In this document: positions 11,732 to 50,123 of the stretch, one piece after another | Layout of the letters: each line of letters starts with the position of its first letter | How positions within the stretch are numbered: position 1 is the stretch's first letter | Assembly (NCBI RefSeq): GCF_014054945.1 | Contig: NZ_CP059566.1 | Coordinates: forward strand, 562,036 to 626,035 | From: Neisseria sicca | GTDB lineage: Bacteria; Pseudomonadota; Gammaproteobacteria; Burkholderiales; Neisseriaceae | Length of the DNA: 64,000 nt | Direction of reading: 5' to 3' | Translations under genes and position numbers: made by a program | The notes under the pieces: model-generated | Told to the model about the DNA's origin: nothing | Database searches by the model: none | The model's input: only the letters and a program-made list of their open reading frames with translations

Positions 11732-11792
11732 TGTTACGGCGATTTTTCTTTATAATACGAAAAATTTTTATGAATTAACAAAGGCTGGAATT

Positions 11793-14795: not shown

Positions 14796-14806
14796 GATCC
14801 CTTATT

Positions 14807-16537: not shown

Positions 16538-16650
16538 GGGATACTCGGTTTCTGGTCATCTGACAATGAAAAATAAGGTGCAGGCTGCTTTAGAGGTCGT
16601 CTGAAACGGAGTTGGGGCGATAAAAAGCAGCCTGCACTTTTTTTGCCCGC

Positions 16651-17985: not shown

Positions 17986-18396
17986 TTACCTACGTTGACG
18001 GTTAACAGCAATAAGAGGCTTATTTAAAGTAACTTGGGTCATACCATGCATATATGCATTATATTGCCATACAATAAATTGCTGTTTATATCGCTCATTA
18101 ATTTCTTCCAAACGTTGTACCTGAGCTTTTAAATTCTTAACTTGCTTTTGCAGATAATCCATTGTTACATTCGGTTCTGGGTTAGCTTTTGCTTTTTCTT
18201 TAAGTATATGTTTTTGTTTGCTAAATGCCCCTTGTATATCTGAATAATTAGCTAGGGATTGTCTTTCAATACTTTTAACATTTAATAATTCTGAAACTTT
18301 GTGGCAAAGTAATTCCCAAGTTAATTTACCTTCCCAGGTCTTAATTAACATGATAATGTCTTCTAAACGTTCTTCTGTAACAAGAATTTTGGGCAT
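17986..18396 (-). CDS. small coiled-coil accessory protein (TnpC-like position)
   Basis: 136 aa. Start overlaps the recombinase-3 stop (18396/18398). C-terminal coiled-coil (KNLKAQVQRLEEINERYKQQ). Confidence 0.55.
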   Translation of the reverse strand: MPKILVTEERLEDIIMLIKTWEGKLTWELLCHKVSELLNVKSIERQSLANYSDIQGAFSKQKHILKEKAKANPEPNVTMDYLQKQVKNLKAQVQRLEEINERYKQQFIVWQYNAYMHGMTQVTLNKPLIAVNRQRR

Positions 18397-18397
18397 A

Positions 18398-20440
18398 TTA
18401 TAACTCCATTAGTCTATACAAATCATTGTCTAATTTAGCTGTATCTGGTTCTAGAATGTCTATATCCATTCCTTTTTCCTGTAAAGCTAATTTAACTGGG
18501 GAAGGGTCATACTCATCAGGAATTCGTAATAATGATCCATTTGGAATTTCCCGATTTTCTAAAAATGCAATTTTGGTTTTTATATGTGTTAATCTCCATC
18601 CCAAATTACTTATCCACCGATCTGCACCAAAAACACCTAATTTATGGTGCTCTCTCGCTTTATTAAATTGTTCTGTAAGTTGAATTTCTCTAAGCTTTAA
18701 TATTTCTAAAGATGATTCTAATCCTTTAATACAAACGAGTTCTTTACATGTTTCACAATCCCCATGGCGAGAGCATGGCGACATTGCATAATCATGTTCA
18801 CAAATGCCTATTTCCGTTATAGTTGCAATTCCAATTCTATTTTTTCCTAAGTCTTCATAGGTTACTGGAAGATTTAAATGAATTTTATCTAAAAGTGAAG
18901 CATACTCGGGAATAAGTAAATTCCGAACTGCTTCACTTTTTTCTTCTTCTGTCCTGTGATCATAAGCCTTATTATCTGCAATTCTAGCCCTCCCTGCCCA
19001 GTTCGCTAAAGTTAATTCATCCATTCCACCTCTCTCAGCTTTTGTACTTAACCAATGCCTTGCATTGTGTGATAGCAATCTAACAAACTCTCCTTTCGAA
19101 GTAGTTATACAATGCTTTTCCCATAATGATGTTTTAGGGCGTGTATCAGAATAGCAGAATCTATCATTAATAAGATTTACTGTTGGTAATATAAAAGAAA
19201 ATTTTTTAGGGAGAAAATTATCATGAAATTCATTTTCTCTGAATAATAATAAGGCTTCAGAAGCTTTAACGTTTTTATTTTTATCAATATATGGCCAGTA
19301 ATTGAATTTTGAGGTATATTTTTCGTATAAGTATTTCCCTAAAACATTGGGAGTTATAACACCACTATTTTCTTTCATTAACTTTTCAAACCACTTAGTT
19401 TTAATCCCATGCTTTCCATTAATTTCTAAAACCTTACCTATTTCTATTTCAGTTAAAGGTTTTTGAGGTAAATAATGGGATACTTGCATACCTTGATCTG
19501 GTGATATCATTACCGTGTTCGGATTTTCTTCCGCAAACTTTGCTGCTTTTCTTGCTAAAGCTCCTATATCTGTTAAACGTTTGACTGCTTCAATAATCAC
19601 ATCTTGCATGCTACTAGGAACCCATTTCAAACCCTCTTTTCCATTTTTTGCAGGTATCCATCGAATACCTAATTGCTTATTTCCTAGGCTATCTTCTTCC
19701 CATTCTAAGCAATTAACAGATAAAGACATCAACTCAGAACAACGAGATGGAGCAACCATAAGTAGAGCCATAACTGCTGTATAATACTCAGTTTCTTTAT
19801 CTAAATTTGGTGCATCATGAAAGAGTTTGGCTACCAACATCATTTCTTCATCTGTTGGCATTTTACTTGAACGGTATTCTTTTCCTCTTTCATCAAGCAA
19901 TATCGTTAAATCTCTAGGACGTTTATATGGGTTATTCCATAAAGACAAATTTGGAGTAATACCATTTTCACGACAAAAATCAAATAACTTCTCAAGTTGA
20001 TATCCTAATTTATTGACTGATTCAGTATCTTTTTTATATTTTTTCAATACAAGGGTTTCAACTTCATTAATGACTAAATTATCGAGTTGTAATATATCGC
20101 AATTGTCTTTTACATTGTATAAAGCCATTTCAACCATACGTAATGACTCAAGATGCCGTGATAATTGACGAACTGGTTGCTGAGAGTAAACATAACGAAT
20201 GTATGCTTTAGCAAAATCAATAAATGGTTCAGATAACGGCTCATATTGATAGGATGTAGATTTAACCCTATCTGTGGAAAAACGAACTTGAATGTTGTGA
20301 AGATTAAAGGTATCTCTCCATTGATTATTGTCCCAACAATCACTTCCGAAAGCTGTAAGTTTGTTTCTACAGAAAGTGATAAAATTTTCTAAACTGGATT
20401 TTGGATTCTCATGTACTTGGAAAAAAATTGTATTATTCAT
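18398..20440 (-). CDS. tyrosine recombinase 3 of 3 (large, TnpB-like)
   Basis: 680 aa. LLSHNARHWLST (RH motif), LANWAGRARIADNKAYDHRT (W/H...Y). Long N-terminal extension, as in Tn554 TnpB. Confidence 0.7.
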   Translation of the reverse strand: MNNTIFFQVHENPKSSLENFITFCRNKLTAFGSDCWDNNQWRDTFNLHNIQVRFSTDRVKSTSYQYEPLSEPFIDFAKAYIRYVYSQQPVRQLSRHLESLRMVEMALYNVKDNCDILQLDNLVINEVETLVLKKYKKDTESVNKLGYQLEKLFDFCRENGITPNLSLWNNPYKRPRDLTILLDERGKEYRSSKMPTDEEMMLVAKLFHDAPNLDKETEYYTAVMALLMVAPSRCSELMSLSVNCLEWEEDSLGNKQLGIRWIPAKNGKEGLKWVPSSMQDVIIEAVKRLTDIGALARKAAKFAEENPNTVMISPDQGMQVSHYLPQKPLTEIEIGKVLEINGKHGIKTKWFEKLMKENSGVITPNVLGKYLYEKYTSKFNYWPYIDKNKNVKASEALLLFRENEFHDNFLPKKFSFILPTVNLINDRFCYSDTRPKTSLWEKHCITTSKGEFVRLLSHNARHWLSTKAERGGMDELTLANWAGRARIADNKAYDHRTEEEKSEAVRNLLIPEYASLLDKIHLNLPVTYEDLGKNRIGIATITEIGICEHDYAMSPCSRHGDCETCKELVCIKGLESSLEILKLREIQLTEQFNKAREHHKLGVFGADRWISNLGWRLTHIKTKIAFLENREIPNGSLLRIPDEYDPSPVKLALQEKGMDIDILEPDTAKLDNDLYRLMEL

Positions 20441-20442
20441 AA

Positions 20443-21990
20443 TTAATGAGCCTCCATATTTTTTTTCATTTCATTACACGCTTGAACAACATATTCAACA
20501 GCCAATATAATACGATCCTTAGAAGATGCATAATCTATACTTTTAGTTCTTCTTAAACGTTCTTCTTTCTCTTTATACAGTTTATTTAATATTTGTTGAT
20601 GTGGACCATCAACCAAAGGTCTAAATTTAGGACATAAATAACAAGTCTCATAACCAGTTATACAAAAATCATTCGTCCCACATGCGCCTATAGTATCTAC
20701 TCCGTTATTAGTTATTAAAGATGTTGGATCAAATCCTCTCTCACTTTCATTCAAATTAGAAATAATTCTGCCAACAAATGCTTGGGCTAGTTTTCCCATT
20801 TCAGCACCCATAACGCGATCAATATATTGCACTGTATCCGCTGTATTTTCAGTATAGACTTTCACATTTTGTGTATCTGAGTGATCTAATAGTTCTGCTA
20901 TAATCGCTGCACCAACTCCTTTTCTCCCTAGGTTAGTTCCCCTTGTATGACGAAAACGTCTTGCATTAACATGAATGATTTCACCTGTCCGCTCTGAAAC
21001 AGCTTTTTGATGAATACAGAATTTTCGTAATGTGTTTTTCTCTAATGAAGATGTTGAGTAATGAAAAATATCTTTATCTAATAATGAAAGATCAAAACAC
21101 CTATTTTGTATATTCCTTTTCAAAGTATACCAATCGATAAACATTGGTAATCTCATTTTATAATCTGATATAAATGCTTCATCAACCAAACTAAGTAATT
21201 TTTTGTATTGATATTCTATGAAGTTTAAGAGAATTAAATACAAATCCTCTGTGATGGCAAGCTTTTTAAATGTTCCTCTAAATAACCCTCCTCTCTTTTT
21301 AGCCCTAGGGATATTTAGGAAATAATTCCATGTTCCTTGAGAAATTTCCTTTTTCAAGTCTTCAAATTTTAAATGGCGGATTTGAATAGGTCTTCTCGCG
21401 GTAGCTTGAAGTAAGTGAATATATGTATATGTTTCAAATGGAATAAGATCTTCTTTCCAAAGTCTAGCCAGCTCCGTCATTAAAGCCAAAATTTCATTTT
21501 CAGTAAATGCACCTGTATAAGGGCATCTCATTAATACCGCTTTACCTTTGTTGTTTCCACTCAAGGTAAAGCTTTCTAGCAGCAATGCAACTGATTCATC
21601 AACTCCATAATAACCATACTCATGCCATGAGAGCAAAAAACCTTTTAGTGCACCTAAATACCATTCATGATCTTTTCCTAATTTATTTTTCCAATCCAAG
21701 ATTATTGGCACGTTAATATTTTCTAATCTAGTTGAAATTACTAATCGTTGGAACTGTTGGTACATGTGAGATACGTGATAACTTGAATATTTTTCGGCAT
21801 ATATTGCTAATGTCTTTCTGAACCCTTCTAATGTTTTTTTATTAATTCCTAATATGTGTTTAGAAAAATTAATCTTTATTTCTTTGCTTATATGCCAAGA
21901 ATTTTCGTTTTCATCAAATACATATCCATCTCTAGATTGTCTAATAATTTTATTATGATTCATAATCATCAACCTTTTTTTGAAACTCAA
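20443..21990 (-). CDS. tyrosine recombinase 2 of 3
   Basis: 515 aa. HVNARRFRHTRGT (box II RHT) and LLDHSDTQNVKVYTE (H...Y). Overlaps the upstream gene by 38 nt. Confidence 0.75.
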   Translation of the reverse strand: MSFKKRLMIMNHNKIIRQSRDGYVFDENENSWHISKEIKINFSKHILGINKKTLEGFRKTLAIYAEKYSSYHVSHMYQQFQRLVISTRLENINVPIILDWKNKLGKDHEWYLGALKGFLLSWHEYGYYGVDESVALLLESFTLSGNNKGKAVLMRCPYTGAFTENEILALMTELARLWKEDLIPFETYTYIHLLQATARRPIQIRHLKFEDLKKEISQGTWNYFLNIPRAKKRGGLFRGTFKKLAITEDLYLILLNFIEYQYKKLLSLVDEAFISDYKMRLPMFIDWYTLKRNIQNRCFDLSLLDKDIFHYSTSSLEKNTLRKFCIHQKAVSERTGEIIHVNARRFRHTRGTNLGRKGVGAAIIAELLDHSDTQNVKVYTENTADTVQYIDRVMGAEMGKLAQAFVGRIISNLNESERGFDPTSLITNNGVDTIGACGTNDFCITGYETCYLCPKFRPLVDGPHQQILNKLYKEKEERLRRTKSIDYASSKDRIILAVEYVVQACNEMKKNMEAH

Positions 21991-23284
21991 TTTGAAGTTC
22001 TAATAATATCTTGTTAGCTTTTTCTCTAATATAACGTTGATTATAGAAATTACCTGATTTTTCTGACGTATGCCCCATGAGATGCTGTCTTATTTTTGCC
22101 TCTTTTTCAGGGGAGATAAAATCTTTATGGGAAGAATCATGATTTAAATTTTTATTATTCTTATCTACTTTTCGTGAAAAATATAAGTTCCATTCATGAC
22201 GAAAAATATGCGGATGAATAATAGAGAATCTTGGATCTACCTTTTTCATCGTTGGTACAATAACGTTGTCAAAAGAACTTGTACTAATTGGACTCCCTTG
22301 AGTTTTTCCTTTTCGATGAGTTACAAACAAATATGGATGTGTATTCGCATTGGGAACTTTAGAACGATAATTCATAATATAATCATTAAGTAGTTGAGCT
22401 ATCTTTTGTGATATTGGCAAGCGCCTTTCTTTAGTTTTACTAACTGCCTGAATTTTTCTTGTGTCAAATTTATCATCATGCGTTCGCTTTATTGTAACCG
22501 ATGGTTTAGCAGTCCCTATATCGATAAATGGTATTTGAAGTGATAATAGTTCTCCTCTTCTAATTCCTAATTCTTTCAGTAAGATAAACATTAAATGGTT
22601 TCTTTTTCTTATTCCGATATCTTGAAACGGATTATTAGGGTTTGAAAAGTTCGCAATAGACATAAACTCATCTAACAATCCATCGGGTAACTCACTTTCT
22701 GGTTTTATAGATAATGCTTTATGATTCTTAGGTCTTACTCCTTTAATTAGCGTAAGTAATTTTGTTAATTTTTTGATATATTCGTTAGATACACTTATTA
22801 CTTTAGATAGAAATAATATGTATTCTGAAAGTGTTGTTAGCCTATTATATTGGTGACTAAGGGATACAGACGAGTAAATATCAATAAATTGAGTTCGACC
22901 TTTCATTGACACACTTTTTTTTGTACTAATTACATTTTTTTGCTTTTTTACATTTATTCTCATATGTTGAATAAGAGATTCTAATTGATTTTCTGTTAAG
23001 AGTATCTCTTTATGAATCAGATCACTAATAACAAGATTATTCTCTTTTTCCCAGTTCATTAGCCATTGTATGGTTCCTAGTTTATTTCTAATGGTATTTA
23101 CTGCGGATTGATTACGTAGTTCTACTGTTACCCATAGGGTTGAATAAAAATCAGGTATACCAGTTTTCTCATTAACTAACAGGGAAAAGCGTTCTCCATT
23201 TGAAAACAGGATTGTTTCTAGTCTATACATATCTACTAAATTTACAGAGTTAATATATATAAATACTAACAAAGAAGATAACAA
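21953..23284 (-). CDS. tyrosine recombinase 1 of 3 (TnpA-like)
   Basis: 443 aa. C-terminal catalytic domain with R (GIRRGELLSL), HxxR (HPHIFRHEW) and H...Y (LMGHTSEKSGNFYNQRY). Confidence 0.75.
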   Translation of the reverse strand: MLSSLLVFIYINSVNLVDMYRLETILFSNGERFSLLVNEKTGIPDFYSTLWVTVELRNQSAVNTIRNKLGTIQWLMNWEKENNLVISDLIHKEILLTENQLESLIQHMRINVKKQKNVISTKKSVSMKGRTQFIDIYSSVSLSHQYNRLTTLSEYILFLSKVISVSNEYIKKLTKLLTLIKGVRPKNHKALSIKPESELPDGLLDEFMSIANFSNPNNPFQDIGIRKRNHLMFILLKELGIRRGELLSLQIPFIDIGTAKPSVTIKRTHDDKFDTRKIQAVSKTKERRLPISQKIAQLLNDYIMNYRSKVPNANTHPYLFVTHRKGKTQGSPISTSSFDNVIVPTMKKVDPRFSIIHPHIFRHEWNLYFSRKVDKNNKNLNHDSSHKDFISPEKEAKIRQHLMGHTSEKSGNFYNQRYIREKANKILLELQIEFQKKVDDYES

Positions 23285-23292
23285 AAGTCAAA

Positions 23293-23340
23293 ATATGTGT
23301 AAAAAAAGAGAAACCTTGCTATATAAGGTTTCTCTGGGTT
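23293..23340 (-). terminator. ssb rho-independent terminator (stem-loop repeat copy 2 of 2)
   Basis: agagaaaccttgctatataaggtttctct, 40 bp 3' of the ssb stop. Same sequence as 6993-7023. Confidence 0.7.
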
Positions 23341-23379
23341 TTAATGATTTATTTTTTACAAAATTCAAGTATACAGAAT

Positions 23380-23895
23380 TCAGAACGGAATATCGTCGTC
23401 GATGTCCTCGACAGGGGCTGCCGGTGCGGCGGGAGCTTGGCGGCGGGGGGCGGCAGGGGGTTCTTGGTTTTGCGGGGCGGCTTGGTATTGTTGTTGTGGC
23501 GCTTGTTGTTGGTAGCTGCCTTGGCTGTAACCGCCGTCGTCGTAAGGTGCGCCGCCGCTGTTGTCGTTGCGGCCGCCGAGCATTTTCATTTCATTGGCGA
23601 TAATGTCGTATGCGGTACGTTCGATGCCGTCTTTGCCTTGGTATTTACGGCTTTGGATGCGGCCTTCCAGATAAACTTGGCTGCCTTTTTTCAGGTATTG
23701 CCCAGCGATTTCGGCGAGGCGGCGGTACATAGTGATGTTGTGCCACTCGGTGCGTTCCACGCGCTGGCCGTTGCGGTCGTTCCAGGTTTCGCTGGTGGCG
23801 ACGCTGAAATTGCAGACGGCTTCGCCGTTGGGCATATAGCGGACTTCGGGGTCGCGACCGAGACGGCCGATAAGGATGACTTTGTTCAATGACAT
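23380..23895 (-). CDS. ssb: single-stranded DNA-binding protein
   Basis: OB-fold N-terminus ([38 protein letters not shown]), Gly/Gln/Pro-rich linker, acidic tip DIDDDIPF. Confidence 0.95.
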
Positions 23896-23898
23896 TTT

Positions 23899-25281
23899 TT
23901 AAACTCCTGTGATGATGTTTTCGGCGGCCTCTTGGTCAAATCCTTTTTGCAACGCCTTGATGTAAATAGTTTGTTTGTCTGCGCTGAAGGTAATGCTTTC
24001 GACGCCTTCGACTTGGGACAATGCTTGGTAGAGCGAATCGTGTTTTTCCTGCCATGCGGGGCTGACGGGATAGCTGAGGTTTTTGACGGGTTTGGGCGCG
24101 GGCGCGAGCACGGCGATGACCAGCCATAGCAGCATCAACACGCTGCAAAAGGTGAAAACGCCTGCAAAGCCGTATTGTTGAAACAGCCATCCGCCGCTTG
24201 CGCCGCCTACAAACAGCCCGACGGACTGCATGGTATTGTAAACGCCCATCGCTGTGCCTTTCAAATCGGCCGGCGCAATCTTAGATACCATGGACGGCAG
24301 GCTGGCTTCCAATACGTTGAAGCCGATAAAGTAAACGACCAGATAGGCGGTAATCAGCCAAATCGAGTGCATGCCGAACAATAAGCCGATTTGCGCCGCT
24401 GCGATGCAGGCGATGCCGAGGATGAAGACTTGCTTGAGCTTGTTGCGGGTTTCGCCGATGATGATGAGGGGGATCATAATCACCAGCCCTGCAATAGTCG
24501 AGGGCAGATAGACTTTCCAATGCTGGATTTTTTCCAAACCGAGCTGCGTCATGGCAAAAGGCAGGGCGGTGAATAACGCCATTTGTGCGGCGTGCAGCGC
24601 GAAAATGCCGAAATCCAAGTTGAGAAGCTGGCGGTCTCGGAGGACTTCGCCCATGCGAGAGGGCTGCGCCTGTGTGTCTTCGTGCAGCTTGGACACTTCG
24701 GGATCAGGAGTCATCCAAGCGACAACGCCTATGCTGATGACGGTCAGGATGCCGGTCAGCATAAACAATCCGGGAACGCCGATAATGTCGGCAATCATCG
24801 GGGCGACCACAAGGCTGACGGAAAAGGTCAAGCCTATGCTCAAACCTATCATCGCCATTGCGCGGGTACGCACGCCGTCTCGGGTCAAGTCGGCAAGCAG
24901 CGCGGTCACTGCGGCGCTGACTGCGCCCGCCCCTTGAATGGCGCGCGCGGCAACCAGCATAGGCAATGAGTTGGCGGCGGCGGCAAGAAAACTACCGGCG
25001 GCAAAGACAATCAGTCCGACATAAATGGTTTTTTTGCGTCCGAATTTATCGGAGGCGATGCCCAAAGGCAGTTGCAGCAAAGCCTGCGTCAGTCCGTAGA
25101 TACCCATTGCCAGACCGACCAAGGTTTTGTTGTTTTCCGCGCCGGGCAACGAGGCGGCATATAAGGACAAAACGGGGAGAACCAAGAACATCCCCAACAT
25201 ACGCAGTGCGTAAACGCCGGAGAGGGTGGTGCTGGCACGCCATTCGTGCGGGAACATTTGGATGCGGGTGTCTTTTGCCAT
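23899..25281 (-). CDS. MFS transporter with an extra C-terminal soluble domain
   Basis: 460 aa, 12 TM helices, MFS motif-A-like GIASDKFGRKK, roughly 70-aa C-terminal tail. Confidence 0.7.
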   Translation of the reverse strand: MAKDTRIQMFPHEWRASTTLSGVYALRMLGMFLVLPVLSLYAASLPGAENNKTLVGLAMGIYGLTQALLQLPLGIASDKFGRKKTIYVGLIVFAAGSFLAAAANSLPMLVAARAIQGAGAVSAAVTALLADLTRDGVRTRAMAMIGLSIGLTFSVSLVVAPMIADIIGVPGLFMLTGILTVISIGVVAWMTPDPEVSKLHEDTQAQPSRMGEVLRDRQLLNLDFGIFALHAAQMALFTALPFAMTQLGLEKIQHWKVYLPSTIAGLVIMIPLIIIGETRNKLKQVFILGIACIAAAQIGLLFGMHSIWLITAYLVVYFIGFNVLEASLPSMVSKIAPADLKGTAMGVYNTMQSVGLFVGGASGGWLFQQYGFAGVFTFCSVLMLLWLVIAVLAPAPKPVKNLSYPVSPAWQEKHDSLYQALSQVEGVESITFSADKQTIYIKALQKGFDQEAAENIITGV

Positions 25282-25409
25282 AAACGGTTTTTCAGACGAC
25301 CCGGTAGAATTTTGAGGTCGTCTGAAATTTTAAAATTATCAGATGTGCGGATTATACAGGATTCAAAAGGGTTTGCATTTGCACGGGCGCAGCCGTTTAT
25401 ACCCCGCGG

Positions 25410-40616: not shown

Positions 40617-41930
40617 TTACTTCTGCTTATCCAACGCTTCCTCATCCAGCGATTTCAACCATTCCAGCTTTTCGCCGATTTTGATTTCCAGCCCGCGCGG
40701 GACGGGTTGGTAGAAATCCGGTTCGTCCAAGCCGTCGGGCATATAGCTTTCGCCGGCGGCGTAGGCGTTCGGTTCGTCGTGGGCGTAGCGGTATTCGCGT
40801 CCGTAGCCCAATTCTTTCATCAACTTGGTCGGGGCGTTGCGCAGGTGGACGGGCACTTCGTCGCTGGCGTTTTCTTTGACGAAGCGGCGCATTTGGTTGT
40901 ATGCCTTGTAGCCCGCGTTGGATTTCGCGGCGGCGGCAAGGTACAACACGGCTTGCGCCAGCGCGAGTTCGCCTTCGGGCGAGCCTAAGCGTTCAAAGGT
41001 GGCGGCGGCATCATTGGCGATTTGGAAGGCGCGCGGGTCGGCAAGCCCGATGTCCTCCCACGCCATGCGCACGATGCGGCGGGCAAGGTAGCGCGGGTCG
41101 GTGCCGCCGTCGAGCATACGGCAGAACCAATACAGCGCGGCATTCGGATGCGAACCGCGTACTGATTTATGCAGGGCGGAGATTTGGTTGTAGAAACTCT
41201 CGCCGCCTTTGTCGAAACGGCGGATTTGCGCGCCGAGGCTGTCGGCGAGAAATTCGGCGGTCAGGGTTTTCAGACGACGTGTGTCGGCGGCGCGTAAAAG
41301 TTGCTCCAATAAATTCAACAATCTGCGCGCATCGCCGTCGGCGGTATTGACGAGCAGCTCCTGCGCATCGGCTTCAATCGTGAAATCCCGGTATTCGGGC
41401 AATGCCAATACTTTGGCAATCAGTTTCTTGAGGTCGTCTGAAGACAAGGATTGCAAAACATACACCTGCGCGCGGCTCAACAGCGCGGGATTGACTTCAA
41501 ACGACGGATTTTCCGTAGTCGCGCCGATAAAGGTCAGCAAACCGCTTTCGACATGGGGCAAAAACGCGTCCTGCTGCGCCTTGTTGAAGCGGTGGACTTC
41601 ATCGACAAACAAAATCGTCGCGCGTCCCTGCTGCAAGGCGATTTCTGCCTTGTCGATTGCCTCGCGTATGTCCTTCACGCCGGAGAATACGGCGGAAACA
41701 GGCAGAAACTGGGCATTGAAACTCTGCGCCAAAATCCGCGCCAACGTCGTCTTGCCCACGCCCGGCGGCCCCCACAGCAACATAGAATGCGGTTTCCCGC
41801 CTTCCACCGCCACACGCAGCGGCTTGCCTTCGCCGATTAAATGCTGCTGCCCGATAACGTCATCAAGCGTATGCGGGCGCAGGCGTTCGGCAAGCGGCGC
41901 ATCGGGTTGGCGGGTGAAAAGGTCGGACAT
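40617..41930 (-). CDS. rarA: replication-associated recombination protein A (AAA+ ATPase RarA/MgsA)
   Basis: LRPHTLDDVIGQQHL, Walker A GPPGVGKTT, Walker B ILFVDEVHRFNKAQQD. C-terminal MgsA domain. Confidence 0.9.
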   Translation of the reverse strand: MSDLFTRQPDAPLAERLRPHTLDDVIGQQHLIGEGKPLRVAVEGGKPHSMLLWGPPGVGKTTLARILAQSFNAQFLPVSAVFSGVKDIREAIDKAEIALQQGRATILFVDEVHRFNKAQQDAFLPHVESGLLTFIGATTENPSFEVNPALLSRAQVYVLQSLSSDDLKKLIAKVLALPEYRDFTIEADAQELLVNTADGDARRLLNLLEQLLRAADTRRLKTLTAEFLADSLGAQIRRFDKGGESFYNQISALHKSVRGSHPNAALYWFCRMLDGGTDPRYLARRIVRMAWEDIGLADPRAFQIANDAAATFERLGSPEGELALAQAVLYLAAAAKSNAGYKAYNQMRRFVKENASDEVPVHLRNAPTKLMKELGYGREYRYAHDEPNAYAAGESYMPDGLDEPDFYQPVPRGLEIKIGEKLEWLKSLDEEALDKQK

Positions 41931-41994
41931 GGCGGTTTCCGTGAAAGAGGGTTTTCAGACGACGTGGATTATAGCAGGTCGTCTGAAAGGAGGA

Positions 41995-43407
41995 TTAACG
42001 CTCTTTGGGCATAATATCAATATAGTTTTCATTCAAAATTTGCAGGAATTTCCCACTGATAACGATACATTCTGTTGCTAATTTTGCGGCTTCCTTTTTT
42101 CCTTTGTTGTTTTCAACAGTTGGTGGGCAGAAGACCTTAGTGTCGCCTAAGTTCCAAGCCATGTAGCCGTATAGGGCGTTGTTGCGTTGTTCGGGGATTG
42201 AAGAACAGGTAATGTCTTTTTCTACTTTTTCTTTTTCTGAGAGCACAGAGCATTTAAATTTCTGTTTTAACTTGAATAAGTCATTTTTATCAATCCCACT
42301 AGTTTCTTGCAAGCCATTGTTTTGTTGAAAATTATTGTGTAATAAATACCATGAAGAGTTTTGTGGTATTTCTGTAAAACGAACTGGATAAAGCATACGC
42401 ACAGAAAAATTTTCAGATAGTATTACTATCAAGAGTAATGAAAAAAAAGCAATCATACAAGGAAATATAAGAACTTTCTTATGATCATTTTTATTGTTTT
42501 TTTGGTGGCGAATGAAGCGAGAGACTAAGAAGACATTCAATAGCATCATTATGCCGAGAAAAAGTAAGTATAAGTATTGAGTTTCTTCTCCAGGCAACCA
42601 ATCGTTAGTCATTATTATAAAAACTAAGGAGTATAAAAATGTTGTAGCAGATGAGAGTATAATTATCATTATAAAGAGTATTAATGTAGTAATTTCCTCT
42701 GTTATCTTATTTTTTCTTTTTTTATTCTTATTTTTAGAAAAATAATTTTTTAATTTTTTTAAAAAATCAATAATTTTAATTATATATATATTTTTTATAT
42801 CATTATTTGAAAATATTATTAAATAAATTAAAGCTGGAATAGTAAAAATAATGATTATAGGAAACAAGATCAATGCTGATACTAGGTAGTATATTGCATA
42901 GAAAATAAATTTTAATATAAAAATTTCAATATCTTTCCTGTTTTTTATTGTTATTTGAATTAAATATACACTCACAGGGAGAAAAATAGCGATATATGAA
43001 ATATATTCTAATATGATTTTAGGAAGATCATTGGATAAATATATATATGTAATTATTGCTATAAATGTTAAAGGAGCTATGGATAAGCATGGTAGCAGAT
43101 TTTTAATAGCTATTTTTTCCTGTTTAACATCTTTCGATAAAGGGATAAGTATGTGAGGGAAAATATATGGGCTAATAAGGGCTATTATTGTTAATACAAA
43201 TGTGATTAAAATAGATGCTAGACTAGAAGGATTTGATATTGCATCGGTAAAAACACTTGGCTGCCGGATGAAAGATAAGTAGCTGTAGGAAAGAAAGCCG
43301 CCTAATATCACTCCTGCTGAAGCTAAAATTGTTATCGATTTGCCGATTATTTCCAAGACTTCAACAAATGAAGATTTTTTCTTTGGTTTGTACATTTTGA
43401 ATACCAC
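41995..43407 (-). CDS. very low-GC (~28%) polytopic membrane protein of unknown function
   Basis: 470 aa, roughly 10 hydrophobic helices rich in I/L/F/Y, Lys-rich loops, C-terminal ~130-aa soluble domain. Flanked on both sides by DUS copies. Confidence 0.6.
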   Translation of the reverse strand: MVFKMYKPKKKSSFVEVLEIIGKSITILASAGVILGGFLSYSYLSFIRQPSVFTDAISNPSSLASILITFVLTIIALISPYIFPHILIPLSKDVKQEKIAIKNLLPCLSIAPLTFIAIITYIYLSNDLPKIILEYISYIAIFLPVSVYLIQITIKNRKDIEIFILKFIFYAIYYLVSALILFPIIIIFTIPALIYLIIFSNNDIKNIYIIKIIDFLKKLKNYFSKNKNKKRKNKITEEITTLILFIMIIILSSATTFLYSLVFIIMTNDWLPGEETQYLYLLFLGIMMLLNVFLVSRFIRHQKNNKNDHKKVLIFPCMIAFFSLLLIVILSENFSVRMLYPVRFTEIPQNSSWYLLHNNFQQNNGLQETSGIDKNDLFKLKQKFKCSVLSEKEKVEKDITCSSIPEQRNNALYGYMAWNLGDTKVFCPPTVENNKGKKEAAKLATECIVISGKFLQILNENYIDIMPKER

Positions 43408-43552
43408 TCCTTATTTCTATAAGATCATTCAATATTTTCCAAATTATACCCCACGTCTCCCAATCCCCCATCTCACACTGCTTACGGTATAATACGCGTT
43501 TGTTTAAAGACTTTGCGGGGCGTTTCAGACGACCTTGCGGCAAGGGATGGTT

Positions 43553-43930
43553 ATGAATATGAAAAAGATGGTCGCCGTTGCTTCTGTGGCGGTGTTGTTG
43601 GGCGGTTGCGCTTATGATGCTGACTCGGCGTTCGGCGGTTTGGGCGGCGGTACGGGGATTGGCGGCAGCGTGGTGAAAATGGCGGTTGATCATCAATGCC
43701 GTTCGGAGTTGAACAAGCGTAATGAGTGGCGTTTGATTGCGCTGACGATGAGCGCGGACAAACAGCGCGAGTGGGAAGACAAAATCTGCGGCTGCGCGAG
43801 CGAGGAGGCGCCGAATCAGGTGTCCGCGCAAGAGTTGATGGATGTTTTGAATCCTTCTTCGCGCGATCGTGCGATTGCGTCGGTAACGGTGAAAACCGTC
43901 AATGCTTGTTTCAAGCGTTTGTATAGATAA
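43553..43930 (+). CDS. small lipoprotein of unknown function
   Basis: MNMKKMVAVASVAVLLGGC lipobox. 125 aa. Confidence 0.6.
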   Translation: MNMKKMVAVASVAVLLGGCAYDADSAFGGLGGGTGIGGSVVKMAVDHQCRSELNKRNEWRLIALTMSADKQREWEDKICGCASEEAPNQVSAQELMDVLNPSSRDRAIASVTVKTVNACFKRLYR

Positions 43931-46617: not shown

Positions 46618-47109
46618 ATGTACGATGTCAACACCCACGATGTCCGCCGATTTTTCGCACACGTTTGGAAACATCGCCTGACCCCGATGCAACTGGATGC
46701 ACTTCAGCTTAACGCCCTCCGTATCATCGAATCTCATCCCGAATACGCCCATTATCTTGAAAACATTGAAGATTATTTAGATAAAAACTGGCTGCCGGAA
46801 GATGGGGAGAGCAATCCTTTTTTACACATGTCGCTGCATCTTTCCCTTCAAGAGCAGGCAGCCATCGACCAGCCACCGGGCATACGGGCGATTCACGGGC
46901 AACTTTGCGCACGTTATAACAACGACTGGGTGCGCGCCGAGCATGACATGATGGATGCGCTGGCGGAAACCATTTGGGAAGCGCAACGATACGGACGCGG
47001 TTTGGATGTCAATGCCTATATGACCCGGTTGCGTAAATTAGTCGGTTTAGGGCAGGAGGAAAACGCCCGTATCAATCCGCATGAAGTGAATGCTAAATTT
47101 GACGAATGA
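46618..47109 (+). CDS. conserved hypothetical protein (DUF1841-like)
   Basis: 163-aa ORF with normal GC. Confidence 0.5.
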   Translation: MYDVNTHDVRRFFAHVWKHRLTPMQLDALQLNALRIIESHPEYAHYLENIEDYLDKNWLPEDGESNPFLHMSLHLSLQEQAAIDQPPGIRAIHGQLCARYNNDWVRAEHDMMDALAETIWEAQRYGRGLDVNAYMTRLRKLVGLGQEENARINPHEVNAKFDE

Positions 47110-47461
47110 AAAAGTTTTCTATGTGATGGAAGATAATGATTTTGAGGTCGTTGAAACGTTGTTTTCAGACGACCTTACAGTTTTGTAGTTTTTTGATTTA
47201 ACCTGAAATTTTTTATGTAGATATTGCTTTTTTTAATGAAAAGTACGATAAAAACTTCCCATTTCTAGTTTTCCATCTTCAGACAGTAATAAGAGTATAG
47301 AACTTAGTCCAATGGAAAATAGTATGGGTTTCATTATTATGCCTACTCCTTGTAAATATATAATCATATGTTCTGATTCTATTGTATGATAAGTAGCTGG
47401 TTGCTACCTAAAAAGTTAAGCAGCAAAGGCAATTAATTATTTTACAAACAAAGGCATACAC

Positions 47462-47830
47462 ATGGATTTCGAGATTAAACTAGAAACTAACTTTAGGGAC
47501 TGGTTGATGGCTGTAAGTCGGGAGGATATCCCGCATGATCTTGCGGCCTGGTCGTTCGAGTTGGCCGAGCCTTACCAAATCACTCTAGTCGGTTCAACCT
47601 ATTTCGACGAGAACGATAATGATTGGGCATGTCCGGATGACGATAATTTTCATCCTATGGCTGCTGCGCCCGACTTATCTGTGTTGTATGGTCAAAACTG
47701 GGAAATTGTATTGGAAACAGTCATTAAAATCGTGCGGAAACTGACAGTTGAATTGCCAGACCTCGCCGTTTTTCGAGTACCTCACATCGCAGCAGGATTT
47801 GTTGATGGTGATTTAGTGTTGATTCGTTGA
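47462..47830 (+). CDS. hypothetical acidic protein
   Basis: 122 aa, followed by a DUS-pair terminator (47827-47868). Confidence 0.45.
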   Translation: MDFEIKLETNFRDWLMAVSREDIPHDLAAWSFELAEPYQITLVGSTYFDENDNDWACPDDDNFHPMAAAPDLSVLYGQNWEIVLETVIKIVRKLTVELPDLAVFRVPHIAAGFVDGDLVLIR

Positions 47831-48020
47831 TTTCAGACGACCTTCCTTTCTTTTCAGGTCGTCTGAAAAATGAACTGTAGCCATATAAGCCGCACGAAAT
47901 AAGCCGATATGTCCGAGAAACAGGCGCGATTTTGGGTCGGCGGGTTTGACGATGAAAAAGAATGTACCACCGGCAATGAATTTTCTGCGATCGTATTATG
48001 AGGAAGGCGTCCTATGATTA

Positions 48021-48458
48021 CTAAGTTACTTTATTATTAAGCTGTGTTTTAATGAAATCAAAAATTTTCCTGTCAGCAACATGATTCAAATCTAAGAATG
48101 ATAAATATTGGCAGTTGCCATTCGGACAGGGCAAAAATAAAAATTCATAAGCAATATCTTCTATATCTGTTATTGTTAAATCACTAAATTGAAAATTAGT
48201 TGTTACCACATTTAACATATTGTTATTTTTGATTGATTCCAGTTCCAAAAGATTATCAAATTCATCTTCTAAAAGACTAGAATTCTCTCCGATAAGAATT
48301 ATCCAAAATAAAGGATATTGTTTAATCGATTCAAATAAATTATTGCAATTTATTGTTTTTAGGAAGTTTTGACTGATTAAAGCCACGATAGGCTTATCTT
48401 TTTTTATTTTAATCTTTCTGAAATTCGAATCTAGATTTATATTCAGATAATCAATCAT
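48021..48458 (-). CDS. hypothetical protein, low GC
   Basis: 145 aa, about 30% GC. Confidence 0.45.
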   Translation of the reverse strand: MIDYLNINLDSNFRKIKIKKDKPIVALISQNFLKTINCNNLFESIKQYPLFWIILIGENSSLLEDEFDNLLELESIKNNNMLNVVTTNFQFSDLTITDIEDIAYEFLFLPCPNGNCQYLSFLDLNHVADRKIFDFIKTQLNNKVT

Positions 48459-48560
48459 TATAGTTACTCCTTTGGAACACCGGAAATAATCCGCATCATC
48501 AGGCAGCAGCGTTCAAACGGCATGGATATTGTTTTCACACATCCATATAGGCTGCACTCA

Positions 48561-48958
48561 ATAAGCTTGGTGTAGGTCGGATTCTCGAATCCGACATTTT
48601 GGGCTATATCAATGGAAGCACAATCGAAAAGAACGATATTTCCAGCAATTTTCAATTTGTAGCGTGGGCTATGCCCACGAAAATACGAAAGGTCGTCTGA
48701 AACCTGTACGCAGGCTTTCAGACGACCTCAGCTTTACAAAAACAACCCGTGGGCAGAGCCCACGCTACGGTTAACTCAACGTATCGCCGTCTCCAAAACT
48801 CCTCCGCTGAGAATGCAAAAAGGCCTCAACTTATTATTGCAACGACCTCAGGCGTAGGTCGGATTCTCGAATCCGACATTTTGGGCATTGCTGCAATGAA
48901 TTGCAATGATGGGAGTGTTAAAGGTTTTGTCGGATACAAGTATCCGACCTACGCTTGC
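48561..48958. repeat. array of palindromic repeats (gcgtaggtcggattctcgaatccgacattttgggc x2 direct, plus one inverted partial copy) interleaved with cgtgggc-N-gcccacg hairpins and a DUS pair
   Basis: Copies at 48561-48605 and 48852-48896. Inverted partial copy gtcggatacaagtatccgacctacgc at 48931-48958. Hairpins at 48662-48680 and 48741-48760. NIME-like intergenic mosaic. Confidence 0.6.
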
Positions 48959-49115
48959 TTGCTGAAAGTTTAAAACAATGGTTTGAGAACGGCAAAAAAC
49001 GCGTGCGTACGTACCACGTACATCCCACACATCGGTTTTAAAATTTGTGCCACCCGCAGGAGGAGGGTGTGGTGCAGCCACGCACGCGGTTGGTGGAGAT
49101 GCAGGCTACGGCTTG

Positions 49116-50123
49116 CTACGTTCGCTTTATCAACTTCTCTATATCTTTTATATAATCACTCTTACCAAATATATTCGGATCATATAATCGATGACACTTA
49201 ATAAGCAACCTATTGAAGTTCCTATTAGCCAACAATTTTAGAGGCATATGTTCCAAAAAAGAATATCTTTCAAGAAGTTTTATATATGGTTGATATGATT
49301 CTGTATCTTCTCTATACGCAGTTATTGCCAGTAATTGTAATAATCTAAAATCAATCGATGCTCTAACAATATTACTATATTTTTTTTCCTCATCATCTAA
49401 ATTTCCTTTACCATATGATAACGAATTAACAAATTTTAAAACTTGATATAGATATAAAGAAAATTGATTAAATTCAATAAAATCTTTATCCACTCTCTTT
49501 TGAATATATTCAAATTTAGGAAAATTTATATCACCTTCCTCATAATAATAAATTAAATCATCAGTACTATCAAAATGATACCCGATATTATTCATTAAAT
49601 TATCTATAATATTATCAACAAATCCTTTTTTTACATCTTTTCCTAAAGATTTATCAAATACCACCACTTCTTTATTTAATATTTTTGAACATAACTGATT
49701 GAGCTGGTTGAGCATTGAAAAGAAGGTTGTTTCAAACTGTTGCTGCTTAAATATCTTTGATTGTTCAGCTAACAATTTTTCGGACTCCTCCTGTGCCTTT
49801 GCACTTCTTGATAATTCTTCTCTTGTTGCTTTTAATTCCTCAACTTGCAACTTGATACTATCTTTTTGTAATTTAATCGTATCAAGTTGCAATTTGATGG
49901 TATATAACAAAGCAATAAAAGTAGCACAGGCAAAAATTGGATTTAATACACCTCCAATATAATCTCCAAATTGCCCCCATTGCTCAGGAGATGTACTTAA
50001 CTTTCTATTTCCAAATGTAAAATAATATAATAAAAGTACGAGTAAAATTGATATGCCAACCAAACCAATTAATCCCTCATACCATTTAATTTCATATATC
50101 TTTTCTTGTTCCTTGTTCATCAT
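49116..50123 (-). CDS. low-GC membrane-anchored coiled-coil protein, candidate abortive-infection protein (putAbiC-like)
   Basis: 335 aa. Two N-terminal TM helices (LIGLVGISILLVLLLYYF; VLNPIFACATFIALLYTI), then a heptad-rich region (LQLDTIKLQKDSIKLQVEELKATREELSRSAKAQEESEKLLAEQSKIFKQQQ), then a Tyr/Asn/Lys-rich C-terminal domain. About 28% GC. Confidence 0.45.
   Translation of the reverse strand: MMNKEQEKIYEIKWYEGLIGLVGISILLVLLLYYFTFGNRKLSTSPEQWGQFGDYIGGVLNPIFACATFIALLYTIKLQLDTIKLQKDSIKLQVEELKATREELSRSAKAQEESEKLLAEQSKIFKQQQFETTFFSMLNQLNQLCSKILNKEVVVFDKSLGKDVKKGFVDNIIDNLMNNIGYHFDSTDDLIYYYEEGDINFPKFEYIQKRVDKDFIEFNQFSLYLYQVLKFVNSLSYGKGNLDDEEKKYSNIVRASIDFRLLQLLAITAYREDTESYQPYIKLLERYSFLEHMPLKLLANRNFNRLLIKCHRLYDPNIFGKSDYIKDIEKLIKRT

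What the first reader, a model, noticed from the sequence alone, without database searches (positions are those of the whole stretch)
41940..43530. Single-gene very low-GC insertion encoding a 470-aa polytopic membrane protein between rarA and the lipoprotein/thrC genes
GC is about 28%, against about 55% in neighbouring rarA. The gene is bracketed by DUS copies on both sides (41956-41997 and 43520-43535). The protein has roughly 10 TM helices and Lys-rich loops, plus a C-terminal soluble domain (...CSVLSEKEKVEKDITCSS...FCPPTVENNKGKKEAAKLATECIVISGK). This clearly looks horizontally acquired. The function is unknown. Candidates include bacteriocin or phage-exclusion immunity, a CAAX-protease-like protein, or an O-antigen or teichoic-acid-type polymerase remnant.
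Basis: seen in the sequence. Interest (0 to 1): 0.55.

Follow-up and report, generated by a model that had tools for sequence, protein, structure and literature searches.

The report
Hypervariable AT-rich Neisseria membrane gene
This very AT-rich gene is not a fresh insertion but the resident copy of an undescribed, extremely variable inner-membrane protein that commensal Neisseria keep in one fixed chromosomal slot and swap between strains and species, a pattern typical of genes involved in conflicts with phages or rival bacteria.

Summary
A 466/470-aa ORF (41995-43395/43407, minus strand) has 28.7% GC, against 58.6% in rarA. It has about 9 TM helices and a Cys-containing periplasmic C-terminal domain.

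The reading as a recent DUS-bracketed insertion is only partly right. DUS occur about once per kb throughout the window. The gene sits in the same slot (thrC, lipoprotein, gene, rarA) in 37 of 39 related loci. The two empty sites keep its promoter and last codons, so they are deletions.

The protein belongs to a family absent from Pfam, NCBIfam, PADLOC and PHROGs, with no fold match. It is found only in Neisseria and Moraxella, always as a solo AT-rich gene between housekeeping genes.

It is a mosaic. The TM1-TM2 hairpin and the periplasmic domain are conserved (dN/dS about 0.1, dS about 1). They flank a polytopic core with at least 10 mutually unalignable types and 5-9 TM. Alleles are older than their flanks and have crossed species; DUS dialects mark import from mucosa/sicca donors.

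Function is unknown. My best inference (about 0.4) is a conflict-related exclusion or immunity-type membrane protein.

The parts
41995..43395 (-). Coding sequence of the hypervariable membrane protein. It is 466 aa from the ATG at 43395; the mechanical ORF extends to a GTG at 43407, giving 470 aa. Residue numbers used in this report follow the 470-aa numbering.
   Evidence: The ORF is intact in 33 of 37 occupied related loci. dN/dS is below 1 in all modules.
43120..43377 (-). Conserved module 1 (residues about 11-96). It comprises TM1, a short periplasmic loop/helix (S.FPD...PSS) and TM2 (..PY.F). G36, Y43 and L44 are nearly invariant.
   Evidence: AlphaFold pLDDT is 88-96. dN/dS is about 0.08 within allele types.
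42388..43119 (-). Hypervariable polytopic core (residues about 97-340). In this allele it holds about 7 TM and Lys-rich cytoplasmic loops, with 24% GC and GC3 21%. It is a rare 'long-core' type.
   Evidence: Identity across 116 relatives is 3-15%, with large indels. No column is invariant in 90 diverse members. There are at least 10 core types, and only 19% of pairs are BLAST-detectable. dN/dS is about 0.25-0.35 within a type.
41998..42387 (-). Conserved periplasmic C-terminal domain (residues 341-470). Motifs are RF.E.P..SSWYLLHN, NALYGYMAWNLG.TKVFCP and EC.VI.GK.LQ. C427 and C447 are invariant; C386 and C401 are a second Cys pair restricted to the Neisseria subgroup.
   Evidence: Conservation is 90-99% across 116 relatives. 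For the invariant residues. dN/dS is 0.11 with median dS 0.97. pLDDT is mostly 88-96. The domain recovers 126 cluster representatives, in which it is always C-terminal.
43407..43448 (-). Expression signals: a -10 box TATAAT (43443-43448) and the AAGGAG ribosome-binding site (43407-43412). All alleles share the upstream sequence exactly as far as this -10 box and diverge right after it.
   Evidence: comparison of 12 alleles. The simple promoter scan did not flag the site because there is no good -35.
41954..41987 (.). Inverted pair of mucosa-dialect DUS between the stop codon and the rarA start. It is the likely terminator of the gene. Its 14-nt loop contains TATAAT.
   Evidence: It is conserved in every allele and in the empty sites.
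43524..43533 (-). Single mucosa-dialect DUS in the 145-bp divergent promoter region shared with the lipoprotein gene.
40617..41930 (-). rarA (mgsA), the downstream flank. It acts as the right-hand homology arm for allele exchange and has hitch-hiked across species.
   Evidence: rarA dS is 0.15 against N. elongata, while thrC dS is 1.17.
43553..43930 (+). Divergently transcribed 125-aa lipoprotein gene. It is a genus-wide core gene and the left-hand homology arm, not a dedicated partner of the membrane gene.

Best explanation
SHOWN. The gene is the resident allele of a cassette-like, hypervariable locus and not a new insertion. It encodes a polytopic inner-membrane protein of an undescribed family restricted to Neisseria and Moraxella.

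The protein is a mosaic of these modules:
- an optional hydrophilic cytoplasmic N-tail (absent in this allele);
- a conserved TM1-loop-TM2 hairpin;
- a core of about 3-7 further TM helices that exists in many mutually unalignable, very AT-rich types;
- a strongly constrained, disulfide-bonded periplasmic domain of about 125 aa;
- an optional conserved C-extension (absent in this allele).

Alleles are exchanged by transformation and homologous recombination. The homology arms are the shared promoter and lipoprotein gene on one side and the conserved C-domain and rarA on the other. Breakpoints also fall inside the gene. Allelic lineages predate the divergence of the genomes that carry them. The same alleles occur in different species, and the gene is occasionally deleted.

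INFERRED. The conserved periplasmic assembly (hairpin tip plus C-domain) does the common biochemical job. The variable membrane-embedded core sets a specificity that is kept diverse by frequency-dependent selection. The most likely role is a self-contained exclusion or immunity-type barrier against an antagonist that must engage or cross the inner membrane, such as phage genome entry or a membrane-acting bacteriocin or contact-delivered toxin.

I put about 0.85 on the evolutionary and structural description and about 0.4 on the conflict-related function. The confidence given for this explanation is for the whole statement.
For: Same slot: the order thrC, lipoprotein, gene, rarA holds in 37 of 39 loci.

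Deletion scars: empty sites L034 and L037 retain about 107 nt of the gene's promoter region, including its -10 box, plus CAAGAGCGTTAATCC, which is the last codons and stop. Never-occupied sites in other species lack both.

Mosaic conservation.

Constraint: the C-domain has dN/dS 0.11 at median dS 0.97. The core has dN/dS about 0.3.

Alleles older than the background: C-domain dS is 0.9-1.4 between genomes whose thrC, lipoprotein gene, rarA and fpr differ by dS 0.05-0.24.

Intragenic recombination: in the same pair, C-domain dS is 0.28 and core dS 0.08.

Cross-species alleles: N. sicca 4320 and N. elongata ATCC 25295 have core dS 0.10 but thrC dS 1.17. N. subflava L005 and a mucosa-group contig L031 have core dS 0.012.

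DUS-dialect marker: in subflava, flavescens and elongata contigs the lipoprotein-to-rarA segment carries mucosa-dialect DUS (for example 5 mucosa to 0 canonical) while the outer flanks carry the canonical dialect (0 to 6; 0 to 8). Dialect logic and species assignment come from PMC7371117.

Diversity: at least 10 core types among 88 cluster representatives, and 316 or more clusters at 90% identity.

Topology: K+R counts are 28 inside and 2 outside. The loop before the last TM is the more positive side in 53 family members and the less positive in 10. A Cys pair is invariant.

Hallmarks shared with conflict genes: the gene is dispensable, shows presence/absence polymorphism, is a solo AT-rich gene at different housekeeping junctions in different lineages, and sits at a junction that is an insertion hotspot.
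Against: - There is no functional evidence of any kind.
- PADLOC and PHROGs give no recurring match for any of 90 members, and no IMG/VR phage contig carries the domain.
- No toxin, bacteriocin, secretion or prophage gene is linked in any of four genomic contexts.
- The variable part is almost entirely transmembrane or cytoplasmic, not periplasm-exposed.
- Averaged dN/dS in the core is about 0.3, so there is no sign of pervasive positive selection.
- Many of the compared genomes are separate GTDB species clusters within a species complex. Part of the 'polymorphism' is therefore between close species rather than within one.
- My TM-parity test across alleles was inconclusive.
Confidence: 0.45

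Rival explanations
1. Fast-evolving membrane anchor. The protein's only function lies in the conserved TM1-TM2 hairpin and the periplasmic domain, for instance an envelope-associated binding or maintenance role. The extra TM helices are a weakly constrained spacer. They drift rapidly toward AT-rich, FLINKY-rich sequence and gain or lose helix pairs. The deep 'types' reflect ordinary divergence among the many oral Neisseria species, shuffled by frequent transformation, with no frequency-dependent selection.
For: - All invariant residues lie in the two conserved modules and none in the core.
- dN/dS is 0.09 in the conserved modules and about 0.3 in the core, and never clearly above 1.
- TM number varies from 5 to 9.
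- C-domain dS between types (1-2.5) is of the same order as thrC dS between Neisseria species groups (1.2-2.5).
- GC3 is lowest (21%) exactly where alleles can no longer recombine with each other.
Against: - Adjacent genes in the same genomes show no comparably deep imports: thrC, fpr and the lipoprotein gene all have dS 0.05-0.24 within the mucosa/sicca complex. Neutral import should therefore be rare, and harder still across an unalignable core.
- The locus was imported into every non-mucosa carrier examined, 5 of 5.
- The core still shows purifying selection (dN/dS about 0.3), so it is not mere filler.
- The gene is dispensable in some strains.
Confidence: 0.3
2. One reading: a recent horizontal insertion of a single foreign gene from a low-GC donor into this strain, delimited by the flanking DUS.
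For: - The gene has 28.7% GC against about 55-59% in its neighbours.
- The junction is empty in other Neisseria species and in two close relatives.
- The family also occurs in Moraxella, so intergeneric transfer has happened at some time.
Against: - The slot is occupied in 37 of 39 loci across several species.
- The empty sites in close relatives are deletion scars.
- dS is saturated between alleles resident at the same slot.
- AT-richness is a family trait in every host: 25.5% against 55-57%, 34% against 55-58%, and 34% against 44-46%.
- DUS density is about one per kb everywhere.
- There are no integrase, transposase, att site or direct repeats at the borders.
Confidence: 0.1
3. A divergent member of a known polytopic enzyme or transporter family: CAAX/CPBP protease-type bacteriocin immunity protein, Wzy-type repeat-unit polymerase, or MFS transporter (the label some NCBI records give it).
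For: - It is polytopic, AT-rich and hyperdiverse, like wzy genes.
- Two N. subflava and N. flavescens records are auto-labelled 'MFS transporter'.
- One of 90 members touches TIGR04370 at E = 0.004.
Against: - No Pfam or NCBIfam family recurs among 90 members, and all hits are scattered and sub-threshold.
- No conserved residue exists in the TM core where such enzymes carry their catalytic motifs.
- The TM number is not fixed.
- No glycan-synthesis neighbours appear in any context.
- There is no fold match.
Confidence: 0.03
4. Spurious or decaying ORF in AT-rich intergenic DNA.
For: - The ORF is not called in the complete genome CP028150.1.
- A few relatives have interrupted reading frames.
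Against: - The ORF is intact in 33 of 37 occupied loci.
- dN/dS is 0.1-0.3.
- The architecture is conserved from Neisseria to Moraxella.
- The interrupted copies are mostly in MAGs, with indels in A/T runs.
Confidence: 0.02

Closest known systems
Wzy/Wzx O-antigen and capsule repeat-unit processing genes
   Same: They are polytopic inner-membrane proteins and markedly AT-rich relative to the genome. They exist as many mutually unalignable forms at one fixed locus and are replaced by homologous recombination in conserved flanks. (Properties of wzy/wzx are from my own knowledge.)
   Different: wzy and wzx sit inside glycan-synthesis clusters, whereas this gene is solo between housekeeping genes. 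No Wzy_C or TIGR04370 membership was found. This protein also has two highly conserved terminal modules flanking the variable part, and its TM number changes between alleles.
Immunity proteins of pore-forming colicins and other membrane-acting bacteriocins
   Same: They are small-to-medium polytopic inner-membrane proteins whose specificity resides in transmembrane helices. They are polymorphic, dispensable and horizontally exchanged. (From my own knowledge.)
   Different: Those are encoded next to their toxin and have 3-4 TM and no periplasmic domain. Here no toxin is linked in any context, the protein has 5-9 TM plus a conserved 125-aa periplasmic domain, and no sequence match was found.
Phage superinfection-exclusion membrane proteins (such as P22 SieA, T4 Imm, HK97 gp15)
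   Same: They are single-gene inner-membrane barriers that act without a partner. They are typically AT-rich and lack recognisable domains. (From my own knowledge.)
   Different: Those are prophage- or phage-encoded. This gene is chromosomal at housekeeping junctions, absent from IMG/VR contigs, and has no PHROG match.
Polymorphic self-recognition membrane determinants (Proteus IdsD/IdsE, Myxococcus TraA)
   Same: Allelic specificity is encoded in a variable stretch of a membrane protein between conserved regions, and many alleles are maintained in a population. (From my own knowledge.)
   Different: Those work with identified partners and secretion or exchange machinery, and none is linked here. 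The resemblance is conceptual only and was not tested.

Membership tests
CAAX/CPBP intramembrane protease-type immunity proteins (Pfam PF02517) | Match to the PF02517 profile | tested here: not met
   No hit for the window protein or for any of 90 diverse family members.
CAAX/CPBP intramembrane protease-type immunity proteins (Pfam PF02517) | Conserved catalytic Glu and His motifs inside TM helices | tested here: not met
   No invariant or nearly invariant residue anywhere in the core, residues 97-340.
Wzy-type oligosaccharide repeat-unit polymerase / O-antigen ligase | Profile match (Wzy_C, O-ag_pol_Wzy, TIGR04370) | tested here: not met
   No Pfam hit. One of 90 members hits TIGR04370 at E = 0.004, far below cut-off.
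Wzy-type oligosaccharide repeat-unit polymerase / O-antigen ligase | Location within a glycan-biosynthesis gene cluster | tested here: not met
   Neighbours are thrC, a lipoprotein gene and rarA here. Elsewhere they are polA and gyrB, infB and sdaA, or an ABC-F gene and VanY.
MFS transporter (the label on some NCBI records) | PF07690 match and a fixed 12-TM (6+6) architecture | tested here: not met
   No MFS_1 hit in 90 members. TM number varies between 5 and 9. True MFS proteins in the same window score E = 1e-60.
Catalogued anti-phage defence systems (PADLOC-DB v2) | Match to a defence-protein profile | tested here: not met
   two single sub-threshold hits among 90 members.
Catalogued anti-phage defence systems (PADLOC-DB v2) | Residence in a defence island | tested here: inconclusive
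   An AbiC-like ORF lies 5.7 kb away (49116-50123). It is separated from the gene by thrC, fpr and a DUF1841 gene, and it is not linked in other loci.
Phage superinfection-exclusion proteins | Encoded by a phage or prophage, or matching a phage protein family | tested here: not met
   No relative in IMG/VR. No recurring PHROG. No prophage genes in any context.
Bacteriocin / polymorphic-toxin immunity protein | Adjacent cognate toxin gene | tested here: not met
   None in four different genomic contexts. An orphan-immunity role is not excluded.
Bacteriocin / polymorphic-toxin immunity protein | Allele-specific protection against a toxin | not testable with these tools
   This needs competition or killing assays.
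Recently acquired genomic islet | Atypical base composition | tested here: met
   28.7% GC against 48.2% for the window and 58.6% for rarA.
Recently acquired genomic islet | Strain-specific presence, with pristine empty sites in close relatives | tested here: not met
   Occupied in 37 of 39 loci. The two empty sites keep the promoter and the last codons of the gene.
Recently acquired genomic islet | Mobility genes, att sites or target-site duplications at the borders | tested here: not met
   None in 41850-43650. The borders are the shared -10 box and the DUS-pair terminator.
Balanced, trans-species polymorphic cassette locus | Allelic lineages older than the flanking genome | tested here: met
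   C-domain dS is 0.9-1.4, against flank dS of 0.05-0.24 in the same genome pairs.
Balanced, trans-species polymorphic cassette locus | Same allele in different species, and exchange through conserved flanks | tested here: met
   Core dS is 0.10 between N. sicca and N. elongata and 0.012 between N. subflava and a mucosa-group contig. The DUS-dialect switch is confined to the lipoprotein-to-rarA segment.
Balanced, trans-species polymorphic cassette locus | Positive or frequency-dependent selection on the variable part | tested here: inconclusive
   Region-averaged dN/dS is 0.25-0.35, with a few pairs at 0.9-1.1 on small counts. Site models and population statistics were not run.

The most novel reading that the evidence does not exclude
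This is a previously unrecognised class of solo, self-contained specificity determinant of mucosal Neisseria and Moraxella. A constant periplasmic module is coupled to a swappable, membrane-embedded hypervariable core, and the alleles are kept as an ancient trans-species polymorphism. It would act in phage exclusion, in resistance to membrane-acting toxins, or in kin discrimination. Its extreme and persistent AT-richness would arise because the unalignable cores escape recombination-associated GC enrichment, not because they arrived recently.
Probability: 0.3. Interest if true: 0.75.

Novelty: new variant of a known kind. Interest (0 to 1): 0.55.

Why it matters
- It is a clear counter-example to the rule that low GC means recent horizontal acquisition. 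An AT-rich gene can be an old resident whose composition is a stable family trait.
- It uncovers an undescribed protein family with hundreds of 90%-identity clusters in oral and nasopharyngeal Neisseria and in Moraxella. The family is missing from Pfam, NCBIfam, PADLOC and PHROGs, is sometimes not even called as a gene, and is sometimes mislabelled 'MFS transporter'.
- The locus appears highly polymorphic and prone to interspecies exchange in commensal Neisseria. That makes it a candidate strain marker for oral-microbiome studies and a candidate determinant of phage or interbacterial conflict, in a genus where such determinants shape gene flow toward the pathogens.
- The hypothesis is directly testable by allele swaps at a well-defined slot in naturally transformable bacteria.

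Tried and rejected
- Pfam, NCBIfam, PADLOC and PHROGs on the window protein and on 90 diverse members gave no recurring family.
- PDB sequence profiles for the C-domain and the full length gave nothing.
- The AlphaFold model of the isolated C-domain from a shallow alignment had pLDDT 53 and was unusable, so it was not searched.
- The afdb50 library was not available.
- A BLAST coverage profile without composition correction was uninformative, because hydrophobic segments align everywhere. It was replaced by MAFFT column statistics.
- The TM-parity test with a home-made hydropathy counter gave 64 odd against 43 even. It was inconclusive because 28-32-residue hydrophobic stretches are ambiguous. 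I replaced it with positive-inside counts.
- Phase variation is unsupported. This allele has a single T8 tract, and the frameshifted relatives are mostly MAGs with indels in A/T runs.
- No dedicated partner was found among neighbours. The lipoprotein is a genus-wide core gene that is present with or without the membrane gene. The AbiC-like and recombinase islets in the window are not linked to the gene in other genomes.
- Three literature searches found no description of the family.
Full report
WHAT IS THERE. The window is from a Neisseria of the mucosa/sicca group. It holds 53 copies of GTCGTCTGAA, the core of AG-mucDUS, which is the native dialect of N. mucosa according to PMC7371117. It also holds 12 canonical GCCGTCTGAA. 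About 0.1 of each is expected by chance. N. sicca C2010005502 (L011) and the complete genome CP028150.1 (L038) carry the same gene at 99-100% identity.

The ORF runs 41995..43407 on the minus strand, 470 aa from a GTG. That GTG overlaps the AAGGAG ribosome-binding site, so the ATG at 43395 (466 aa) is the likely start, as called in related contigs. The gene is 28.7% GC with GC3 27%. rarA is 58.6% with GC3 72%, and the window is 48.2%. This is the deepest 1-kb trough in the window. DUS lie at 41954-41987 (an inverted pair, the probable terminator) and at 43524-43533. With about one DUS per kb and inverted pairs at most gene ends, this bracketing is background.

THE PROTEIN. Hydropathy, the positive-inside rule and the AlphaFold model together give about 9 TM helices with the N-terminus in the cytoplasm and the C-terminus outside. 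K+R counts are 28 in cytoplasm-assigned loops and 2 in periplasm-assigned loops. One cytoplasmic loop of 33 residues carries 12 K/R. The last 130 residues carry four cysteines and lie in the periplasm.

A MOSAIC FAMILY. The large protein search returned 316 clusters, all from commensal Neisseria. They are 410-540 aa long, yet most match over only 25-45% of the query. Column statistics over 117 sequences show three zones:
- Residues 350-460 are 90-99% conserved.
- Residues 11-70 are moderately conserved.
- Residues 71-340 are essentially unalignable, with 3-15% identity and large indels.

An exhaustive profile search with the conserved domain found 126 representatives at 50% identity. In nearly all full-length ones the domain is C-terminal in a 370-530 aa polytopic protein. 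These distant members keep the same plan. Named members come only from Neisseria (sicca, mucosa, subflava, flavescens, elongata, dentiae, lisongii and unnamed species) and Moraxella (cuniculi, lacunata, bovoculi, oculi). They are labelled 'hypothetical', 'membrane protein' or, without support, 'MFS transporter'.

Across 90 diverse members, every invariant or near-invariant residue lies in one of two places. Some are in TM1 (G36, Y43, L44). The rest are in the C-domain (E346, W353, Y354, F384, G414, Y415, A417, W418, N419, L420, G421, K424, F426, C427, P428, C447, I450). The core has none.

The cores fall into at least 10 deep types, and only 19% of pairs are BLAST-detectable. Most are 85-129 aa, giving about 5 TM in total. 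The window's allele belongs to a rarer class of about 248 aa, giving about 9 TM. Many alleles also carry a hydrophilic cytoplasmic N-tail of about 95 aa and/or a well-conserved C-extension of about 90 aa with its own Cys pair. These occur in different combinations, and the window's allele has neither.

A FIXED SLOT, NOT A FRESH INSERTION. In every related contig with enough flank, the order is thrC, 125-aa lipoprotein gene, this gene, rarA, even where the wider neighbourhood differs. Of 39 lipoprotein-to-rarA intervals, 37 are occupied. All occupied intervals are 30-37% GC, and 33 have an intact ORF of at least 400 aa.

All alleles share the upstream sequence exactly as far as the -10 box (GGTATAAT) and diverge immediately after it. 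At the 3' end there are two forms. The short form stops (...PKER*) right at the DUS-pair terminator. The long form carries the C-extension and a dRS3-like repeat.

I used the window's exact RarA protein as a probe and found two contigs (L034, L037) with only 214 bp between the lipoprotein gene and rarA. These empty sites retain about 107 nt of the gene's promoter region including its -10 box. Just before the terminator they read CAAGAGCGTTAATCC, which is the last codons and stop of a short-form allele. They are therefore deletion derivatives.

Other Neisseria have a junction that was never occupied (115 bp, no scar; L053-L055). True N. meningitidis carries an unrelated 4.7-kb insert there, with a LysR regulator, a DUF3360 protein and small ORFs. 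The junction is thus an insertion hotspot in the genus, and the gene is accessory at genus level. The lipoprotein is a genus-wide core gene and not a dedicated partner.

OLD ALLELES THAT CROSS SPECIES. The conserved domain has median dS 0.97, dN 0.11 and dN/dS 0.11. It is old and strongly constrained, not recently homogenised. Between the same genomes of the mucosa/sicca complex, thrC, the lipoprotein gene, rarA and fpr differ by only dS 0.05-0.24, while the C-domain reaches 0.9-1.4. The allelic lineages therefore predate the genomes that carry them.

Within an allele type the core has dN/dS of about 0.25-0.35. That is weaker constraint than in the conserved modules, but it is not positive selection. 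The C-domain can have a higher dS than the core in the same pair (0.28 against 0.08), so recombination breakpoints lie inside the gene.

Nearly the same core occurs in different species. N. sicca 4320 and N. elongata ATCC 25295 have core dS 0.10, while thrC dS is 1.17. N. subflava L005 and mucosa-group contig L031 have core dS 0.012. rarA has hitch-hiked: N. elongata rarA has dS 0.15 against the window.

The DUS dialect gives an independent marker. In subflava-group, flavescens and elongata contigs the outer flanks carry the canonical dialect: mucosa-type to canonical counts are 0 to 6 in L025 and 0 to 8 in L028. The lipoprotein-to-rarA segment carries the mucosa dialect: 5 to 0 and 4 to 1. 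By the logic set out in PMC7371117, this marks import from mucosa/sicca-type donors. The record labelled 'N. meningitidis 1273_NMEN' that carries the gene is a known mislabel, and its closest relative is N. mucosa.

LOW GC IS A FAMILY TRAIT. Distant members sit as solo genes at other housekeeping junctions: after polA in N. elongata, after infB in N. dentiae, and between an ABC-F gene and a VanY gene in Moraxella cuniculi. They are just as AT-rich relative to their hosts: 25.5% against 55-57%, 34% against 55-58%, and 34% against 44-46%. Within the window's allele, GC3 is lowest (21%) in the core and 33-37% in the modules that can still recombine between alleles. One possible reason, which is inference only, is that unalignable cores escape recombination-associated GC enrichment.

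HOW IT MOST LIKELY WORKS. What is shown:
- a real, constrained gene;
- N-in/C-out polytopic topology;
- two conserved modules that face or reach the periplasm (the TM1-TM2 hairpin and the disulfide-bonded C-domain);
- a swappable hypervariable membrane core;
- exchange through conserved flanks;
- ancient alleles shared across species;
- occasional deletion.

What is inferred: the conserved periplasmic assembly performs the common task, and the core sets a specificity kept diverse by frequency-dependent selection. The most probable role is a self-contained exclusion or immunity-type barrier against something that must engage or cross the inner membrane, such as phage genome entry or a membrane-acting bacteriocin or delivered toxin. 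I put about 0.4 on this.

The evidence against it is real:
- no match to any defence or phage library;
- no linked toxin or prophage;
- no phage carriage;
- the variable part is transmembrane or cytoplasmic;
- averaged dN/dS is about 0.3.

The main rival (about 0.3) is that the core is a weakly constrained, fast-drifting spacer, and that the diversity reflects species-level divergence shuffled by transformation. Against that rival, adjacent genes show no comparably deep imports, and all five non-mucosa carriers examined had imported this segment. Enzyme or transporter readings (CAAX, Wzy, MFS) failed their membership tests. A spurious ORF is excluded by the selection signal.

VERDICT. The feature is a resident allele of an undescribed hypervariable membrane-protein family. 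The behaviour of the locus resembles known cassette-type polymorphic loci, but the architecture is not one I can file under a known family: a solo gene with constant ends and a swappable polytopic core of variable TM number. Interest is moderate (0.55). It is well documented at the evolutionary level, its function is open, and it is directly testable.

Noticed in passing
window 1600-14000: This segment carries only the canonical DUS dialect (GCCGTCTGAA at 1619, 8008, 9538, 9563, 10098, 10228, 11698, 11715 and 13889) and no mucosa-dialect copy, unlike the rest of the window. It encodes HlyD/MFS/OEP efflux genes interrupted by an IS, an oxidoreductase, a LysR regulator, a luciferase-like monooxygenase and a Na+/H+ exchanger. 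IS transposases at 13963-15663 bound it. It is probably a block imported from another dialect group.
   Followed up: partly
window 16600-25300 (AT-rich part 17400-23700): This is the largest DUS-free gap in the window (8.7 kb) and is AT-rich (minimum 29% GC). It holds two tandem tyrosine recombinases (20443-21990 and 21953-23284, minus strand), then a 680-aa ORF (18398-20440) and a 136-aa ORF with no Pfam match, all next to an MFS transporter gene. It looks like an integrated mobile element.
   Followed up: partly
window 47000-50600; ORF 49116-50123 (-): This is a second AT-rich islet (minimum 28% GC), between the DUF1841 gene and uvrB. It encodes a 335-aa protein with a putAbiC (putative phage abortive infection) domain at E = 2.7e-7, plus two small ORFs with no match. 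Related loci have other content at this position (DUF1963 or SIR2 genes).
   Followed up: partly
L050-L052 (N. meningitidis) and L053-L055, at the rarA/lipoprotein junction: The junction that holds the membrane gene here is empty (115 bp, one canonical DUS) in some Neisseria. In N. meningitidis it holds an unrelated 4.7-kb insert with small ORFs, a LysR regulator and a DUF3360 membrane protein. It is a genus-wide insertion hotspot.
   Followed up: partly
L028 (N. elongata ATCC 25295), rarA at 6945-8255: RarA is 99% identical to the window's (dS 0.15), while ThrC is 81% identical (dS 1.17) and the lipoprotein 60%. The housekeeping gene rarA has been carried across species together with the variable gene.
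   Followed up: yes
window 41964-41977: The 14-nt loop of the DUS-pair terminator (CTGCTATAATCCAC on the minus strand) contains a perfect TATAAT about 30 nt upstream of the rarA start codon. It could serve as the rarA -10 element. It is conserved in all alleles and in the empty sites.
   Followed up: no
L008, L024, L025, L028-L030, downstream of long-form alleles: Long-form alleles are followed by a dRS3-like inverted repeat (ATTCCCGCCTGCGCGGGAAT) before the DUS-pair terminator. Short-form alleles, such as the window's, lack it.
   Followed up: no
L038 (CP028150.1, complete genome) 3524-4936; P0467 and P0470: There are annotation gaps. The identical 470-aa ORF is not called as a gene in this complete genome. 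Family members in N. subflava and N. flavescens records are labelled 'MFS transporter', which has no profile support.
   Followed up: yes
L044-L046 (N. elongata, polA locus) versus L028 (N. elongata, rarA locus): N. elongata strains carry family members at two different chromosomal sites: a distant 424-aa form after polA, and a mucosa-type 532-aa form at the rarA slot. I did not check whether a single genome holds both.
   Followed up: no
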